Of a stretch of 64,000 bases of DNA, positions 34,432-64,000 are shown piece by piece (within the stretch, counting starts at the first letter, position 1; each line of letters opens with the position of its first letter). The stretch is from a virus. A program made the translations under genes and the position numbers. The stretch is taken from IMG/VR virus record IMGVR_UViG_3300023208_000003, positions 133,100 to 197,099 of that record. One strand, written 5' to 3'. The notes below the pieces were generated by a model, which worked only from the letters and a program-made list of their open reading frames with translations, did not search any database and had not been told where the DNA came from.

Positions 34432-37400
34432 ATGATTTTACAGTTTCGTCACGGTGTTCTTAATGCACCACAAGACAATTTAGGCAACTTTAGTTCGCTG
34501 CGCTTGAGCTCTGATCCTACTCGTGTAGATTTAAGCACATCTAATGGGCCACTCTATATTACGATAGCTCATGGTACATCAAATTATATTATTGAATTTA
34601 ATAAAACAATTCAAAAGGCCTGGGGTCCATTACCAGCAAATGCGGATTTGTATGTTGAAATCAGTCAAATAACTGGTCAGCCATCGTTTACATTTTCAAC
34701 TTTACCATTTTTAGTTCAACATGGTGTGCCAGCTACAGCCGGTGTTGGTCAAACAGTTTTTGATCTTGACGCTAACGTAGTTAAAGAGTGGGATGGTAAT
34801 CGTTGGATAACAAAACTTAAAGTTTTAGTTGGTTCAAAAGCTGGTTATAACATCACGTCTTATCCGGTAGGAAGTCAAGTTTCAATTAATGGTAATTTTG
34901 AGGGCGGCTTTATCATTGCAGATGGTGATGGTAAACCAGTTAGACGCCCTAATGGTGAGCTTTTAACTTCTGACGTTGATCTCAAACTTATAGGTAGTCA
35001 ACAGCAAAGTAACATTAAGATTGATAGTACGATCTTTTTGGTAACAGCAATTGAACCAATTCCAGCATTCTCTGTTGTAGCGTTTGGCGGTCCTGATCAA
35101 ATAAAGCTTGCGCAAAATGATCCTGTTTTAGGTGCTACGCCTATTGGTTTCTGTATTGAACCTGTTTATGTTAATGAACCTACCACCATTATTCTTAGTG
35201 GTCGTATTGTTCATAACCCAAATTGGAATTTTGATATTTCTGATGCAGGGAAAACACTGTACCTTACAGCAAATGGGCAGTTTTCTACAGTAAGACCACA
35301 ACGTGACGTTTGGCATATTGGTTCAATTTTAAATCCTACAACAATTCTTTTTCAAATAGATAGAGAAGCATCCGCACCTGTAACAGCTTCATCAACAGGC
35401 ATCACTTCAGTAAGTGCAGTTGCTCCACTCGCAGCAAGCACTTCTTCAGGTGCAGTGCTAGTAGCAATTGGTGAAGCAAGCGCCAGCCAAGGCGGGTACA
35501 TGAGTGAGACTGTTTTTCAAACAGTAGAAAGTACAGCAGCTAACTTAGCACTTGAAATTCAAACTCGCGATAATCAAGTTCAATCTATTTTAAGTTCATT
35601 AACAGCTGAAATTCAAAATAGAATAAGCGCAGATTTATTAAAAGCTGATATAAATCATGTTCATGATATTTTAGATATAACCGGTTTACAAGCTGTTCTT
35701 GATAACAAGACAGATATCGGCCATCTTCATGACATGACAGATATCAATGGATTAATTGCTGAACTAAACAATAAATCAAATATTTCACATGTTCATAACT
35801 GGTTTGATTTAATTAATATTCCAACTGTTGCCGCCGGCTGGTTAACAGATGTTTCATTAATTGGTCACACACATCATATCGCTGATATTGTTGATTTTCC
35901 AACATCATGGGACTGGATACATATTTCAAATACGCCAACAACTTGGCAGGCATATGGAATTACAAATGTTGCCGATATAAATCATACACATCATGTTGCT
36001 AATATTGTTGATTTTCCAAGCGTGTGGGACTGGGCTAACATCATAAATACTCCTACCACACTTGCTGGTTATGGAATATCACCATCAGAGCTTGTGCATA
36101 ATCACCCGTGGTTAGAGATAGTTAACACTCCTACCACACTTGCTGGTTATGGAATAAATGACGCTGCACTAGCAAATCATACTCACGGGCTTTTAAATCT
36201 AACAGATGTTCAGTTTTTAACTTTACCAGCTAATGGTGACTTGTTAAAATTCAACGGAATTACTAATAAGTGGGAAAATTCACCGCACGCTGTAGCAATT
36301 AACTCAAATTTAGGTGGTGTTCAAATAACCACTCCAGTTAATGGACAAATTTTAACTTATGATTTAAGTGGAAACTGGGTAAATGCAAATCTTCCAGCGC
36401 TTCCAACAAATTGGGACTGGGCTAATGTCGTAAACACGCCAAGCAATCTTGCCGGTTACGGAATAAATGACGCGGTTTCACTAACAACATTTAATGCGCA
36501 CAATCACGCTCTTTCGCAACTTTCTGATGTAATAAATTCTACTCCTGGTAGAATTCCTGGTGATGTTTTGAAATGGGATGGTTCTCAGTGGGTAAATCAA
36601 CAGTTGCCAGTTCAAGTTAATTCATTACCGTGGACAAGTATAACTGCGAAGCCGTCGACAATTAGTGGTTTCGCAATTACTGACGCGTACACAATGTCAC
36701 AAGTTGATTCACTGCTTAGCAACAAGTCAAATGTTGGACATATTCATTCACTTGCATCATCAAGTGATGTCACTATAGCGTCACCATCAGCTACACAGTA
36801 TCTCGCCTTTAATGGAACAACTTGGGCTAACACTCCATTTCCAACAACTTGGGCCTGGTCTAATATTACTGGCGCTCCAACAACTTGGGCCTGGTCTAAT
36901 ATTACTGGCGCTCCAACGTCACTTGTCGGGTACGGTATTATTGATGCTTATACCGCAACACAGGTTGATACTCTACTAAGTGGTAAAGCTGCGACAGCAC
37001 ACACACACGCTCTTAGTTCGTTAACTGATACTGTAATTTCGACACCAAGTGTAGATGAGTTTTTGAAATTTAATGGAACTGTTTGGGTAAATAGCCCACT
37101 TACCACTACTGTTAATTGGTCAAATATTATTGGCACTCCTACCACTCTTGCTGGTTATAATATCAGTGACGCGATTGCGACAACTGAAAAAGGTATTGTA
37201 AACGGAGTTGCATCTCTTGATGCAACTGGAAAAGTTCCATCAATTCAACTTCCAGCAATCGCAATAGTTGATACTTTTGTAGTTACAGATCAAACTCAGA
37301 TGCTTGCCCTTACAGCACAGACAGGTGACGTTGCAATTAGAAGTGATCTAAACAAAAGTTTTATTTTGCAAGGAACTGATCCTTCATTGTTATCAGATTG

Positions 37401-56939: not shown

Positions 56940-57159
56940 TTACTTCAACAGCGCCGATGTGTTAATAACTGTTTCAGGTTTCGGTTATTAAACGACGTGG
57001 TTGTAAGTTAGGAAACCTGATTTTTATTTCATTATATGAAAATATTAGTCAGACATTGGAACGAATATTACACGCAATATCATATTCCAAAATATCAACG
57101 ATGGTTCTGGCGAGTAATTTGTATAATAATTGACAATGTTTTCTTTAGAAGACATTACT

Positions 57160-57430
57160 GATTTTATCGTTGTGTAAACAGGAAGTTTTGAAAGACTGAC
57201 TGAAAGGGGTCGCGGACGCGGGGGCAGAACCCGCCCAGTCCACATAGCTTAAAATAAATTTGGGCTGGACAAAGTTTCGACGTGGTCATTAGTAGGAATG
57301 TTTACAACGGGATAGTCGACTGCCCTAAGCAGCGAAAAACTTATAAATGCAAGCAATGACGCATTTTATGGAGATTATGCTCTCGCAGCATAATCCACCG
57401 GGGCTGTTCAGCCTAGCAACAGAATGAACC
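57160..57430 (+). ncRNA. ssrA: Circularly permuted two-piece tmRNA (outer ends approximate)
   Basis: Acceptor piece: T-arm GCGGG-GGCAGAA-CCCGC then CCAGTCC-A (57218-57242). A 19-nt spacer follows. Coding piece starts GGGCTGG (57262), pairing with a G3.U70 wobble. Tag ORF 57349-57393 = ASNDAFYGDYALAA*. Confidence 0.88.
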
Positions 57431-57431
57431 G

Positions 57432-57461
57432 AATGGGGAAGATTTAATCTTCCCCATTTTT
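57432..57461 (+). terminator. Intrinsic terminator after tmRNA
   Basis: AATGGGGAAGAT-TTA-ATCTTCCCCATT followed by T's. Confidence 0.8.
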
Positions 57462-57499
57462 GTGTGTACATCTCCAATTTTTCTTAGTATAATGCTCAT

Positions 57500-61433: not shown

Positions 61434-61667
61434 GTTATGGAGGTACAGCATGCAAACTTTAAGAATGAAACAAACGTTAAAGAGAGCTGGTTGTTGCTGT
61501 AAACCAGCAAAAAAATTTAAAGAAAGTGAAAAAAGTACAAATTTTTTTAAAAAACTATGTACAATGCTGAAGAATATAGTATAATAGTTACACATTCAAC
61601 AAAAATTGAATGTAAAAATCAACTCCTTTAGCGAGCTCTGATTGTTTTTTAACAACTTGATTTATCT

Positions 61668-61824: not shown

Positions 61825-61953
61825 TGTGACTTGATGTATTGGTTAGTACGCGAAAAAAGTCGTCTGCGCCTCTTGTTTCGAAAGAAACCGTTTGTGGATG
61901 GTTATCTCACGCATAAGGGCGAAGACCAGGTTCGAATCCTGAGGTCACAACCA
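61825..61953 (+). tRNA. tRNA-like gene, anticodon CAT, with about 50 nt of insertions
   Basis: TGTGACT/GGTCACA-A-CCA and T-loop TTCGAAT; anticodon stem halves CGCCT and GGGCG are separated by a 38-nt insert. Confidence 0.5.
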
Positions 61954-61956
61954 ATT

Positions 61957-62048: not shown

Positions 62049-62237
62049 AATTTATTGTACATTTTGGATTTTTGTGTTAGAATTTGTTTTTGAATTTTCT
62101 GGAGCTGGCGACCCGTAAGGACTCCTTCGATAAGGAGGAAGCTCCATCGCCATCTATGAAAGAAAGCGGTTGAGGAGTTGTTGTGTTAACATCCGACAAC
62201 AAGACAACTGGAGGATCCGTAACCTCCACCTAAATTT

Positions 62238-62328
62238 GGGTTTCGAAAGTAAGGATGGGTGGTCCCGTCAGCCGGCTGTAACCCGGTTCCCTCGTGGCAA
62301 GCAGTTCGATTCTAGCCGAGACCCACCA
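62238..62328 (+). tRNA. Non-canonical tRNA-Tyr(GTA)-like gene
   Basis: 8-bp acceptor GGGTTTCG/CGAGACCC-A-CCA; 6-bp D stem with TGGT loop; CT-GTA-AC loop; bulged T-stem. Confidence 0.6.
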
Positions 62329-62332
62329 ATTT

Positions 62333-62424: not shown

Positions 62425-62500
62425 ACTCTCGTAGCCCAATTGGCAGAGGCGGAAGGTTTAAGCCCTTCTTTATGTGTGGGTTCGAATCCGACCGAGAGTA
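62425..62500 (+). tRNA. tRNA-Leu(TAA), short variable region
   Basis: GAAGG-TT-TAA-GC-CCTTC; no CCA. Confidence 0.8.
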
Positions 62501-62502
62501 CA

Positions 62503-62574
62503 GTGAAACCGAAAGAAAAATGGTTATCTTACTTTTACTGAGAAAAACCCCGTTTTTCGCTTATTTTGTTTCAC
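62503..62574 (+). ncRNA. Inter-tRNA structured element, copy A
   Basis: GTGAAAC/GTTTCAC outer stem; AAAAATGG/CCGTTTTT inner stem; TTATCT core. Confidence 0.6.
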
Positions 62575-62579
62575 ACTTT

Positions 62580-62656
62580 GCGGGTATAGCTCAATTGGCC
62601 AGAGCGCCGTCCTTCCAAGTCGGAGGTTGTCGGTTCGAGACCGTCTACCCGCTCCA
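62580..62656 (+). tRNA. tRNA-Gly(TCC)
   Basis: Canonical cloverleaf, U73, CCA. Confidence 0.92.
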
Positions 62657-62722
62657 AAATAAAGTTGTACTTTTTGATTTTTGTGTTATAATTATTCCAT
62701 CAAATCAAAATGATGAAAAAGG

Positions 62723-62899
62723 ATGAACGCTCAACAACTGTTAGACACGCTTCTTAGTCTTCAAGCTCAAGGAGCTAATTTACAAATGTTAGATGTAATG
62801 ACTCTTCAATCAAGGACTGATGAAGATTACAATTCATGGATGGAAGAAAGCTGGCCTGGTAATGTTGAAGTTAACGGCTCTGAACTGAGGATTTACTAA
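62723..62899 (+). CDS. Small hypothetical protein (58 aa)
   Basis: Follows the early promoter 62665-62692; not in the ORF track. Confidence 0.45.
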   Translation: MNAQQLLDTLLSLQAQGANLQMLDVMTLQSRTDEDYNSWMEESWPGNVEVNGSELRIY

Positions 62900-62900
62900 A

Positions 62901-63047
62901 ATGATTTGTTATAATTCGATGGCTGAAGCTTGGATAGATGATGAAGATGATTCATTTTACGTGGACATGACACCTGAAGGTGGAGAACCTGATTTTGAGT
63001 TTGAAACTCAGGAGGAGTTTTGGAACTGGTACAACAGTTCAGATTAA
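62901..63047 (+). CDS. Small acidic hypothetical protein (48 aa)
   Basis: Starts 1 nt after the previous stop. Confidence 0.45.
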   Translation: MICYNSMAEAWIDDEDDSFYVDMTPEGGEPDFEFETQEEFWNWYNSSD

Positions 63048-63053
63048 AAAATT

Positions 63054-63128
63054 GCCGTCGTAGCCCAATTGGCAGAGGCGCTACGCTAAGAACGTAGTTA
63101 TGTAGGAGTTCAAATCTCCTCGACGGTA
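63054..63128 (+). tRNA. tRNA-Leu(AAG), short variable region
   Basis: CTACG-CT-AAG-AA-CGTAG; D-arm identical to the Leu(TAA) gene; no CCA. Confidence 0.8.
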
Positions 63129-63131
63129 CAA

Positions 63132-63197
63132 GTGAAACCGCTTTTTAACGATTATCTTATTGGAAAGAAAAAACTCGTTAAATCTTTTTTGTTTCAC
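63132..63197 (+). ncRNA. Inter-tRNA structured element, copy B
   Basis: GTGAAAC/GTTTCAC; TTTAACGA/TCGTTAAA; TTATCT. Confidence 0.6.
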
Positions 63198-63202
63198 GAT
63201 TT

Positions 63203-63285
63203 TCCGGAGTAGGAAAACGGTAACCCCAGGGCACTGTTAATGCTCCGCCGAAAGGCAACTGTCCGTTCGAGTCGGACCTCCGGAG
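63203..63285 (+). tRNA. tRNA with Asn anticodon (GTT) and a long variable arm
   Basis: TCCGGAG/CTCCGGA-G; GGGCA-CT-GTT-AA-TGCTC; GCC-GAAA-GGC extra arm. Confidence 0.8.
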
Positions 63286-63295
63286 CAAAAATTAT

Positions 63296-63368
63296 TGGCT
63301 TGTAGCTCAGTCGGTAGAGCGGGTGATTGTTAATCACTAGGTCGGGGGTTCGAACCCCTCCGGGCCAG
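63296..63368 (+). tRNA. tRNA-Asn(GTT)
   Basis: Canonical cloverleaf, G73. Confidence 0.9.
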
Positions 63369-63674
63369 CATGGGACGAAAGAACATTTAAGGCGAGCGTC
63401 ATACGTTATTTGATGTCTCAACTTAAAAATAGGTTATCGTAAGGTAACCGTCGGTGACGTAGATCATCGTGCAGCGTAAGCAAACTGGTAAGCTATGAAG
63501 CAACCCAGCAAACACTAAAACCGGTCCTGGTAAATATCGAGCGCTCTCGAGGCAGTGGTTTGGTAAAGGCTGGAATTGTTAAGAAGGATGAGGTGGGAGT
63601 TGATCACCCACTAATTTCTAAGTAGTCGGCTCCTGTAAAGTTTGCACATCTACATTAATTTTAGAGAGGTTGAA

Positions 63675-63836
63675 ATGTTTGTAAGAGGTTCAATTGTTCG
63701 TTCTGTAAATGGTGGTCCTGAAATGGAAGTTTTAGGAGTTTCCAATGATGGAAAGATTATGTGTAGGACTTTTGATGAAACATTTCAAGAGTGGTACATC
63801 ATTCAAATTTCTCAAGAATGGTTGATGTACGCGTAA
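63675..63836 (+). CDS. Small hypothetical protein (YodC-like pattern)
   Basis: SD GAGGT before ATG; GSIVRSVNGGPEMEV. Confidence 0.6.
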   Translation: MFVRGSIVRSVNGGPEMEVLGVSNDGKIMCRTFDETFQEWYIIQISQEWLMYA

Positions 63837-63842
63837 GGTTTA

Positions 63843-63908
63843 AATCAAACCGCTTGGTAACGGTTATCTTTTGGGTAGACTAGTCCGTTTCCTACTTTTT
63901 GTTTGATT
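63843..63908 (+). ncRNA. Inter-tRNA structured element, copy C
   Basis: AATCAAAC/GTTTGATT (compensatory changes relative to A and B); AACGG/CCGTT; TTATCT. Confidence 0.6.
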
Positions 63909-63912
63909 ATTT

Positions 63913-63986
63913 CTCCGAGTGGGTCAATTTGGTCGACCACTTGCTTTGGGAGCAAGCTTATGCAGGTTCAAATCCTGTCTCGGAGA
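63913..63986 (+). tRNA. tRNA-Pro(TGG)
   Basis: CTCCGAG/CTCGGAG-A; CTTGC-TT-TGG-GA-GCAAG. Confidence 0.9.
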
Positions 63987-64000
63987 CAAAAATTTTCGGG

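What the first reader, a model, noticed from the sequence alone, without database searches (positions are those of the whole stretch)
62503..63908. Thrice-repeated, covarying structured RNA placed exactly 5 nt upstream of tRNAs
Seen in copies at 62503-62574, 63132-63197 and 63844-63907. Outer stem: GTGAAAC/GTTTCAC, GTGAAAC/GTTTCAC and ATCAAAC/GTTTGAT (two compensatory pairs). An invariant CG follows. The inner stem differs in sequence but stays paired (AAAAATGG/CCGTTTTT, TTTAACGA/TCGTTAAA, AACGG/CCGTT), then TTA and a TCT...AGA stem with a variable loop. Each ends exactly 5 nt before a tRNA 5' end (Gly, Asn, Pro), and two begin 2-3 nt after a CCA-less tRNA-Leu. Inference: an undescribed tRNA-processing element, protein-binding site or small ribozyme for polycistronic phage tRNA maturation.
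Basis: partly seen in the sequence, partly recalled or inferred. Interest (0 to 1): 0.7.

Follow-up and report, generated by a model that had tools for sequence, protein, structure and literature searches.

The report
Mini Y RNAs in phage tRNA array
The three repeated hairpins between tRNA genes of this lake-water jumbo phage are real, covarying small RNAs. They are most likely minimal Y RNAs, the partner RNAs of the Ro60 protein, rather than a new tRNA-processing signal or ribozyme.

Summary
Three 64-72 nt elements lie at the stated coordinates, each 5 nt before a tRNA, and a fourth, circularly permuted copy sits inside a tRNA-like gene at 61826-61954.

Shared architecture:
- a 7-bp end helix NNNNAAC/GUUNNNN
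- an invariant C-G opposite a U-rich strand
- an 8-9 bp covarying upper helix
- an invariant UUAUC

These are the published hallmarks of animal Y RNAs, with the same CCG-N10-GUUAUC spacing as human Y4.

Evidence for a Ro60 link:
- A covariance model built only from tRNA-array copies finds the family in all four complete related jumbo phages. All four encode Ro60.
- The same model gives 28 hits in 79 other phage Ro60 loci, all on the Ro60 strand and 27 within about 2.2 kb upstream of the gene (one just downstream). A size-matched control gave one hit.
- Covariation is strong: 94% of cells paired against 65-67% when shuffled.

No Rfam family matches, including Y_RNA and YrlA. This contig is only about 55% complete and Ro60 is absent from it; synteny places the gene in the missing part. 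Binding and expression are untested.

The scan has reported the same kind of phage Y RNA on other genomes. Verdict: a new variant of a known kind, of moderate interest.

The parts
62503..62574 (+). Y-RNA-like element, copy 1 (72 nt). Lower helix 62503-62509/62568-62574; C-G at 62510-62511; upper helix 62515-62523/62554-62562; UUAUC at 62524-62528; small apical hairpin.
   Evidence: Sequence; fold; R1 36.6 bits and R2 60.8 bits.
63132..63197 (+). Y-RNA-like element, copy 2 (66 nt). Lower helix 63132-63138/63191-63197; C-G at 63139-63140; upper helix 63144-63151/63175-63182; UUAUC at 63152-63156.
   Evidence: R2 66.3 bits.
63844..63907 (+). Y-RNA-like element, copy 3 (64 nt). Lower helix 63844-63850/63901-63907; C-G at 63851-63852; upper helix 63856-63863/63885-63892 with one U.U; UUAUC at 63864-63868.
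   Evidence: R2 62.5 bits.
61860..61907 (+). Fourth copy, circularly permuted. Order: upper-helix 3' strand, U-rich strand, GUUUC-GAAA-GAAAC capped lower helix, C-G, upper-helix 5' strand, UUAUCU.
   Evidence: Pattern hit at 61886; alignment A10; R3 57.6 bits, E 2e-10.
61826..61954 (+). tRNA-like scaffold carrying the permuted module in place of the 5' side of its anticodon stem. It has an acceptor stem, a D-arm, a T-arm and an ACCA end.
   Evidence: Sequence and fold. Neither ARAGORN nor the Rfam tRNA model calls it. Homologous scaffolds in relatives keep CAU, GUU or UAC anticodon loops.
62425..62501 (+). tRNA-Leu(UAA) without encoded CCA, 1-2 nt upstream of copy 1.
62580..62656 (+). tRNA-Gly(UCC), 5 nt downstream of copy 1.
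63054..63129 (+). tRNA-Leu(AAG), 2-3 nt upstream of copy 2.
63203..63286 (+). 84-nt tRNA-Asn(GUU)-like gene with an extra arm, 5 nt downstream of copy 2.
   Evidence: ARAGORN only; no Rfam tRNA hit; fold.
63913..63987 (+). tRNA-Pro(UGG), 5 nt downstream of copy 3.
62056..62083 (+). Promoter-like site (TGTACA-16-TAGAAT with TG) heading the unit that holds Tyr, Leu, copy 1 and Gly.
   Evidence: A near-identical 30-mer recurs at 62664-62691. A similar TTGTAC...TACAAT sits just before the module that starts the Ro60 leader in relative G018.
62664..62691 (+). Second copy of the promoter-like 30-mer (TTGTAC-16-TATAAT) heading the unit that holds two small ORFs, tRNA-Leu, copy 2 and the Asn genes.
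   Evidence: Read directly from the sequence. The consensus scan did not list it.

Best explanation
The three elements are minimal Y RNAs, the small partner RNAs of the ring-shaped Ro60 (Rsr/TROVE) protein, encoded by a jumbo T4-like phage from lake water.

Shown here:
- Each folds into a 7-bp end helix (NNNNAAC/GUUNNNN).
- An invariant C-G follows, facing a U-rich strand. This gives a bulged C and an asymmetric internal loop.
- Next comes an 8-9 bp upper helix that covaries freely, then an invariant UUAUC and a short variable cap.
- The family is tied to Ro60 genes across phages.

Inferred:
- The elements are transcribed within polycistronic tRNA precursors from phage promoters.
- They are released by the tRNA machinery. 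RNase P cutting at the next tRNA would leave a 5-nt NNUUU 3' tail. 3' trimming of the preceding CCA-less tRNA would define the 5' end.
- The mature hairpin docks on the outer face of the phage Ro60 ring through the C-G side of the lower helix.
- There it gates Ro60, or tethers it to a nuclease, for surveillance of structured RNAs during infection. tRNAs are the obvious candidates.

The same handle is also grafted, circularly permuted, into the anticodon stem of tRNA-like genes. One copy lies at 61826-61954. That arrangement is a non-permuted counterpart of tRNA-mimicking YrlA RNAs.
For: 1. Family and structure. Models R1 and R2 were built only from tRNA-array copies. They recover all 3 window copies and nothing else in the 197-kb contig, and 7 strong plus 1 weak (E 0.66) hit in relative G001, 2 of the strong ones not in the training set. 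Across 7 related contigs there are 37 distinct copies. 94.2% of cells are paired against 66.6% shuffled and 26-47% for slid controls, and 13 of 15 pairs show compensatory changes. A conserved U.G wobble marks this as RNA on one strand.

2. Y-RNA hallmarks. [quoted passage not shown] Nematode sbRNAs and vertebrate Y RNAs also share a conserved UUAUC at the start of the loop (PMC4726728). The human Y4 5' end reads GGCUGGUCCGAUGGUAGUGGGUUAUC... (PMC7012775), so the CCG-N10-GUUAUC spacing matches copies 2 and 3. Some family members read GCCGAAG or GUCGAA, which fits the bacterial YrlA motif GNCGAAN0-1G (PMC4201824).

3. Link to Ro60. All four complete genomes of the clade (G001, G004, G005, G018) carry the module and a TROVE gene. 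The G001 protein has both the TROVE and the Ro60 vWA domains. In 79 other phage Ro60 loci (824 kb), R2 gives 28 hits, all on the Ro60 strand. 27 lie within about 2.2 kb upstream of the gene and 1 lies just downstream. A control of 832 kb gave 1 hit. These Ro60-adjacent copies covary at 15 of 15 pairs and keep the same U.G. In G018 the module is the first element of the roughly 500-nt Ro60 leader, with no tRNA nearby.

4. Placement. Across the clade, 24 of 37 copies abut a tRNA within 10 nt. This fits release by tRNA processing.
Against: - No Ro60 gene lies in the 197 kb held for this phage. The contig is about 55% complete. Synteny with G001 places the Ro60 region in the missing part, but that is an expectation, not an observation.
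- Rfam Y_RNA and YrlA models do not match, even at E up to 10 on short stretches.
- The lower helix reads AAC/GUU instead of the vertebrate GUC/GAC. Copies 2 and 3 lack the GAA of the YrlA motif.
- No binding, transcript or end-mapping data exist.
- Co-occurrence within the clade is phylogenetically non-independent.
- In animals UUAUC has been tied to DNA replication rather than to Ro60 binding. Its role here is therefore open.
Confidence: 0.75

Rival explanations
1. The module is a docking handle for a protein other than Ro60, or has an RNA-only role tied to the UUAUC motif. On this reading its position next to Ro60 genes reflects co-regulation, for example a leader or autoregulatory element, rather than a Y-RNA partnership.
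For: Rfam Y-RNA models do not match. UUAUC function in animals is Ro60-independent. In G001 every copy lies 70-100 kb from the Ro60 gene.
Against: The 7-bp helix, bulged C, opposite bulge and spacing reproduce the known Ro60 site. There are 28 same-strand hits beside Ro60 genes against 1 in the control. A Ro60-bound leader would still be a Ro60-binding RNA.
Confidence: 0.12
2. The element is a tRNA-maturation signal: a spacer hairpin that positions RNase P, RNase Z or RNase E, or protects precursor ends, in polycistronic phage tRNA transcripts, with no role after processing.
For: Spacing is fixed at 5 nt before tRNAs in the window. In G001 the spacing is 0-2 nt after and 4-6 nt before tRNAs. 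24 of 37 clade copies abut a tRNA.
Against: Most tRNA junctions in the same arrays have no such element. Copies occur with no tRNA nearby, in front of Ro60 genes. A permuted form sits inside tRNA-like scaffolds, where its ends are not free. The invariant single-stranded motifs match a protein-binding site rather than a generic hairpin.
Confidence: 0.08
3. The element is a small self-cleaving ribozyme or a new kind of tRNA intron or splicing element. The free copies would cut themselves out. The tRNA-embedded copies would be spliced from the anticodon stem.
For: The embedded copies interrupt otherwise good tRNAs at position 29/30 (Rfam tRNA 47-50 bits with a 66-nt insert). 'Enigmatic' introns have been reported in phage tRNAs (PMC6784885).
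Against: No ribozyme or intron family matches at any threshold. I could not draw a bulge-helix-bulge motif at the junctions (my reading). None of the five genomes encodes an RtcB ligase. Free and embedded forms differ in where their ends fall on the fold, so a common cleavage site is unlikely.
Confidence: 0.03
4. The element acts at the DNA level. It would be a miniature inverted-repeat mobile element, or an attC-like recombination site (AAC...GTT) that shuffles tRNA cassettes.
For: It has terminal inverted repeats ending AAC/GTT, lengths of 58-265 bp, and a position between cassette-like tRNA genes.
Against: It is always on the tRNA or Ro60 strand. G.U wobble pairs are conserved at fixed positions, for example U.G in 23 of 37 copies, and these would be A-C mismatches on the other strand. 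A circular permutation inside tRNAs does not fit a cut-and-paste element.
Confidence: 0.02

Closest known systems
Vertebrate Y RNAs and nematode stem-bulge RNAs (Rfam RF00019 and RF01656 from my own knowledge; Kowalski and Krude 2015, PMC4726728)
   Same: A stem is formed by the 5' and 3' ends. It has a 7-bp lower helix, a bulged C followed by G, a bulge on the opposite strand, a covarying upper helix, and UUAUC opening the loop. The CCG-N10-GUUAUC spacing is the same as in human Y4. A U-rich 3' tail is expected after processing.
   Different: The lower helix reads AAC/GUU, not GUC/GAC. The RNAs are smaller (64-72 nt against 80-120 nt) with almost no loop domain. They are made inside bacterial-type tRNA operons rather than by RNA polymerase III. 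The Rfam models do not detect them.
YrlA / YrlB, bacterial and mycobacteriophage Y RNAs bound by Rsr (Rfam RF02553; Chen et al. 2014, PMC4201824; Wang et al. 2018, 10.1101/312249)
   Same: These are partner RNAs of a prokaryotic or phage Ro60, encoded on the same strand near the gene in many genomes. Long family members in relatives carry T-arm-like hairpins, as YrlA does. Some members carry the GNCGAA motif.
   Different: The three window copies have no tRNA-like domain. They sit inside tRNA arrays, not beside Ro60. The tRNA-bearing form here keeps natural tRNA ends with the handle capped (permuted relative to YrlA). RF02553 does not score them.
Phage T4 small stable RNAs, species 1 and 2 (rnaC, rnaD), from my own knowledge
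   Same: They are small non-tRNA RNAs encoded within a T4-type phage tRNA cluster and released by tRNA-processing enzymes.
   Different: They have no known Ro60 link, I know of no shared motif with them, and their function remains unknown. No comparison was run here.

Membership tests
Y RNA (Ro60-associated RNA) class | Terminal stem with the Ro60 site: a conserved helix of about 7 bp, a bulged cytidine, and a bulge on the opposite strand | tested here: met
   The 7-bp helix, the invariant C-G and a 5-10 nt U-rich opposite strand are present in all 3 copies and in 37 + 25 relatives. The definition is from PMC4726728. The helix sequence differs: AAC/GUU rather than GUC/GAC.
Y RNA (Ro60-associated RNA) class | Conserved UUAUC motif at the start of the loop (sbRNAs and vertebrate Y RNAs) | tested here: met
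   UUAUC is invariant in the 3 copies and nearly so across the family. Its position matches human Y4.
Y RNA (Ro60-associated RNA) class | Genomic association with a Ro60/TROVE gene | tested here: inconclusive
   Met for the family: 4 of 4 complete clade genomes, and 28 same-strand hits beside Ro60 in other phages against 1 in the control. Not shown for this phage: there is no TROVE gene in the 197 kb held, the contig is about 55% complete, and the syntenic region is missing.
Y RNA (Ro60-associated RNA) class | Physical binding to Ro60 | not testable with these tools
   This needs a gel shift or co-immunoprecipitation. The complex predictor offered here does not take RNA.
Rfam Y_RNA / YrlA (RF02553) models | Score at or above the gathering threshold of the covariance model | tested here: not met
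   No hit even at E up to 10 on stretches of 75-2500 nt. The YrlA sub-threshold hits in G001 fall on ordinary tRNAs.
YrlA subfamily | tRNA-like effector domain (T and D arms) between the strands of the Ro60-binding stem | tested here: not met
   The three window copies have only a 6-18 nt cap. Long relatives in G001 do carry T-arm-like hairpins.
Small self-cleaving ribozymes (hammerhead, twister, pistol, hatchet, hairpin and others) | Match to a family core | tested here: not met
   No Rfam ribozyme family is hit at any threshold.
Archaeal/eukaryal-type tRNA intron | Bulge-helix-bulge motif at the exon-intron junctions, plus a splicing ligase | tested here: not met
   I could not draw a bulge-helix-bulge at the junctions of the embedded copies (reading). 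The five genomes contain no RtcB. Endonuclease genes were not searched.

The most novel reading that the evidence does not exclude
The phage uses one Ro60 docking handle in two topologies. One is free mini Y RNAs cut out of tRNA precursors. The other is tRNAs that carry the handle capped inside their anticodon stem. Together these would couple Ro60 directly to its own tRNA pool, for example to check or protect phage tRNAs against host anticodon nucleases. On this reading the animal-type signature (7-bp helix, bulged C, UUAUC at fixed spacing) is an ancient part of the Ro60-Y RNA interface that predates animals. That would recast UUAUC, so far tied to DNA replication in animals, as a Ro60-system feature.
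Probability: 0.2. Interest if true: 0.75.

Novelty: new variant of a known kind. Interest (0 to 1): 0.5.

Why it matters
Ro60-Y RNA particles are known from animals, some bacteria and mycobacteriophages, but their roles in viruses are barely explored.

This work shows that conspicuous hairpins between tRNA genes of jumbo phages belong to a large Y-RNA-like family that current RNA family models miss. The family carries the animal-type signature, including UUAUC. The handle is modular: it works as a free hairpin, with tRNA-like cargo, or grafted into a tRNA.

That yields a concrete, testable system (phage Ro60 plus 65-nt RNAs) for asking what Ro60 recognises and what it does to tRNAs during infection. 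It also provides a model that could annotate many unexplained spacers and 'introns' in phage tRNA arrays.

Tried and rejected
- Rfam at gathering and lax thresholds, on the window, on single elements and on G001, gave no family for the elements.
- A strict DNA pattern scan of viral contigs gave 62 hits. All but one (L009, the entry to G001) were chance matches in coding sequence.
- blastn against GenBank phages found only tRNA matches.
- MAFFT alone mis-aligned the upper-helix 3' strands. I therefore seeded a model from three copies that aligned consistently and re-aligned the rest to it.
- Running cmsearch with filters off scored the long copies lower and was dropped.
- An attC-like reading (AAC...GTT) was rejected on strand bias and G.U pairs.
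- An armless-tRNA reading of the short copies was considered because the apical loops of copies 1 and 3 look like anticodon loops. I dropped it because the cap is not conserved.
- No RNA holder was listed among public runs, so expression could not be examined.
- RtcB was absent from the five genomes.
- Two low-GC Ro60 contigs (G036, G037) do not overlap the window end. I could not recover this phage's own Ro60 gene.
- Complex prediction was not used because it does not take RNA.

Full report
**Setting.** The window is the last 64 kb of a 197,099-bp virus contig from lake-water metagenomes, estimated 55% complete. It carries a T4-type major head protein and a tail sheath. The contig ends inside a tRNA array. 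ARAGORN and Rfam find ten tRNAs and a permuted tmRNA in the window.

**Observation.**
They show the stems described and lie exactly 5 nt before the next tRNA.
- The core pattern AACCG-N10-11-RTTATC occurs four times in the window against 0.11 expected by chance.
- The fourth hit, at 61886, lies inside an odd tRNA-like gene at 61826-61954.
- No Rfam family matches any of them at gathering or lax thresholds.

**Relatives.**
- A strict pattern scan of viral contigs gave mostly chance hits. One was real: a complete 359,550-bp phage, G001.
- G001 is syntenic with this contig at about 30-75% protein identity.
- Its tRNA arrays hold at least ten copies on the tRNA strand, 62-128 nt long. They begin 0-2 nt after a tRNA and end 4-6 nt before the next.
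- All share a 7-bp end helix NNNNAAC/GUUNNNN, then C-G, a variable 8-9 bp upper helix, and (G)GUUAUC(U). The 3' side carries a U-rich strand before GUU.
- The cap ranges from a few nucleotides to multi-helix inserts with T-arm-like hairpins.

**Permuted form.**
- In two G001 tRNAs and in the window's 61826-61954 gene, the same module is circularly permuted. The lower helix is capped by a loop, and the open end of the upper helix is spliced into the 5' side of the anticodon stem at about position 29/30.
- A model of this form (R3) finds one copy in this contig, four in G001 and three in each of three further complete relatives.
- Each copy sits between a D-arm and an anticodon-loop/T-arm/acceptor segment, often with a CAU anticodon loop.
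- The module therefore does not depend on where its own ends are. That argues against a processing-signal or self-cleavage reading.

**Structure statistics.**
- I seeded a covariance model from three consistently aligned copies (A3 to R1), re-aligned eight copies and rebuilt (A5 to R2).
- R2 finds only the three copies in the 197-kb contig. In G001 it finds 7 strong plus 1 weak (E 0.66) hit, including two not used in training.
- Across seven related contigs there are 37 distinct copies. 94.2% of pair cells are standard pairs against 66.6% in shuffles and 26-47% when partners are slid. 13 of 15 pairs show compensatory changes.
- The alignment is model-fitted, which favours the structure. The slid controls and the sheer variety of pair types still make the helices secure.
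- A U.G wobble recurs at one position in 23 of 37 copies, and all copies share the tRNA strand. The fold is therefore in RNA, not DNA.

**What it is.**
[quoted passage not shown] Nematode sbRNAs and vertebrate Y RNAs also share UUAUC at the start of the loop (PMC4726728).
- The human Y4 5' end reads GGCUGGUCCGAUGGUAGUGGGUUAUC (PMC7012775). Copies 2 and 3 have the same CCG-N10-GUUAUC spacing.
- Bacterial YrlA RNAs carry GNCGAAN0-1G at the equivalent place (PMC4201824). Some family members read GCCGAAG or GUCGAA.

**Link to the Ro60 gene.**
- G001 encodes a 535-aa protein with TROVE and Ro60-vWA domains.
- The three other complete genomes of the clade, found through the head protein, all have both the module and a TROVE gene.
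- In one of them (G018) a module directly follows a promoter-like site and opens the roughly 500-nt leader of the Ro60 gene, with no tRNA nearby.
- Beyond the clade I collected 79 further phage Ro60 loci (42-93% identical proteins; most 42-59%) with 5-kb flanks.
- R2, trained only on tRNA-array copies, gave 28 hits there, all on the Ro60 strand. 27 lie within about 2.2 kb upstream of the gene and one lies just downstream.
- A control of 832 kb, made of unrelated viral loci plus the rest of G001, gave one hit.
- The Ro60-adjacent copies show the same fold, with 94.6% of cells paired and 15 of 15 pairs compensatory. They also keep the same U.G.

**Caveats.**
- This phage's own Ro60 gene is not in the 197 kb held. 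Synteny places the expected position in the missing part, but I could not recover it.
- Rfam's Y_RNA and YrlA models do not detect the elements.
- No expression data were available.
- Binding is untested.

**Mechanism proposed.**
- Shown: the fold, its conservation, and its association with Ro60 genes.
- Inferred: transcription within tRNA operons from the repeated TTGTAC-N16-TA(G/T)AAT promoter-like sites.
- Inferred: release by RNase P at the next tRNA, leaving an NNUUU tail, and by 3' trimming of the preceding CCA-less tRNA.
- Inferred: docking on Ro60 to gate it or tether it for RNA surveillance during infection. 24 of 37 clade copies abut a tRNA within 10 nt, which fits this maturation route.

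**Comparison and novelty.**
- Phage Y RNAs are published for mycobacteriophages as YrlA.
- I found no paper or Rfam family describing minimal, animal-type Y RNAs embedded in jumbo-phage tRNA arrays, or the handle grafted into tRNAs.
- Introns described as enigmatic have been noted in megaphage tRNAs (PMC6784885).
- This scan has reported the same kind of phage Y RNA on other genomes. My tests here were independent of those notes.
- I class it as a new variant of a known kind, of moderate interest.

Noticed in passing
window 61826-61954: A tRNA-like gene (acceptor stem, D-arm, T-arm, ACCA end) carries the Ro60-type handle capped inside its anticodon stem. Its loop reads CGCAUAA, where homologues in relatives read CUCAUAA (a CAU anticodon). 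ARAGORN and Rfam do not call it a tRNA. Each of the four complete relatives has 3-4 such genes.
   Followed up: yes
window 57133-57484: A phage-encoded circularly permuted (two-piece type) tmRNA. It scores 97 bits against Rfam tmRNA_permuted, and ARAGORN reads the tag peptide ASNDAFYGDYALAA.
   Followed up: no
window 63203-63286: An 84-nt tRNA-Asn(GUU)-like gene with an extra arm and an odd D region. ARAGORN calls it but the Rfam tRNA model does not. G001 has a 91-nt Asn(GUU) gene in the same position after a module (L009 8515-8605, minus strand).
   Followed up: partly
window 62090-62330 and 63370-63640: Two ORF-poor, GC-richer, visibly structured stretches lie inside the tRNA array. The first ends in a T-arm plus ACCA tRNA-like piece at about 62253-62330 (weak tRNA-Sec hit, 17 bits). 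No Rfam family matches, so these may be further small RNAs.
   Followed up: no
window 62055-62085 and 62664-62692 (also 61558-61585): A near-identical 30-nt promoter-like sequence (TTGTAC, 16 nt, TGTTA(G/T)AAT) is repeated in front of successive tRNA / small-RNA units. A similar one precedes the Ro60 leader in relative G018 (L198 about 1452-1482).
   Followed up: partly
L088:9485-9600 (-) and L087:10750-10874 (-), relative G001: Two long family members carry AAUACGAGAGGACUAAU (the second has one change) in their cap. As far as I recall, this matches the universally conserved sarcin-ricin loop of 23S rRNA (UACGAGAGGAC), so it may be an SRL mimic on a Y RNA. I found it in no other copy examined.
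   Followed up: partly
L198 1501-2010, relative G018: The Ro60 gene is preceded by a leader of about 500 nt with no ORF. It starts with a Y-RNA module and contains further repeats (GUUGCUGGUUAGA... twice). It may encode more small RNAs.
   Followed up: no
relative G001, about 120,000 (minus strand; position 35978-36051 of my reverse-complemented stretch 118000-156000): ARAGORN reports a tRNA with anticodon CUA, an amber suppressor type, in this phage. This hints at possible stop-codon reassignment or suppression.
   Followed up: no
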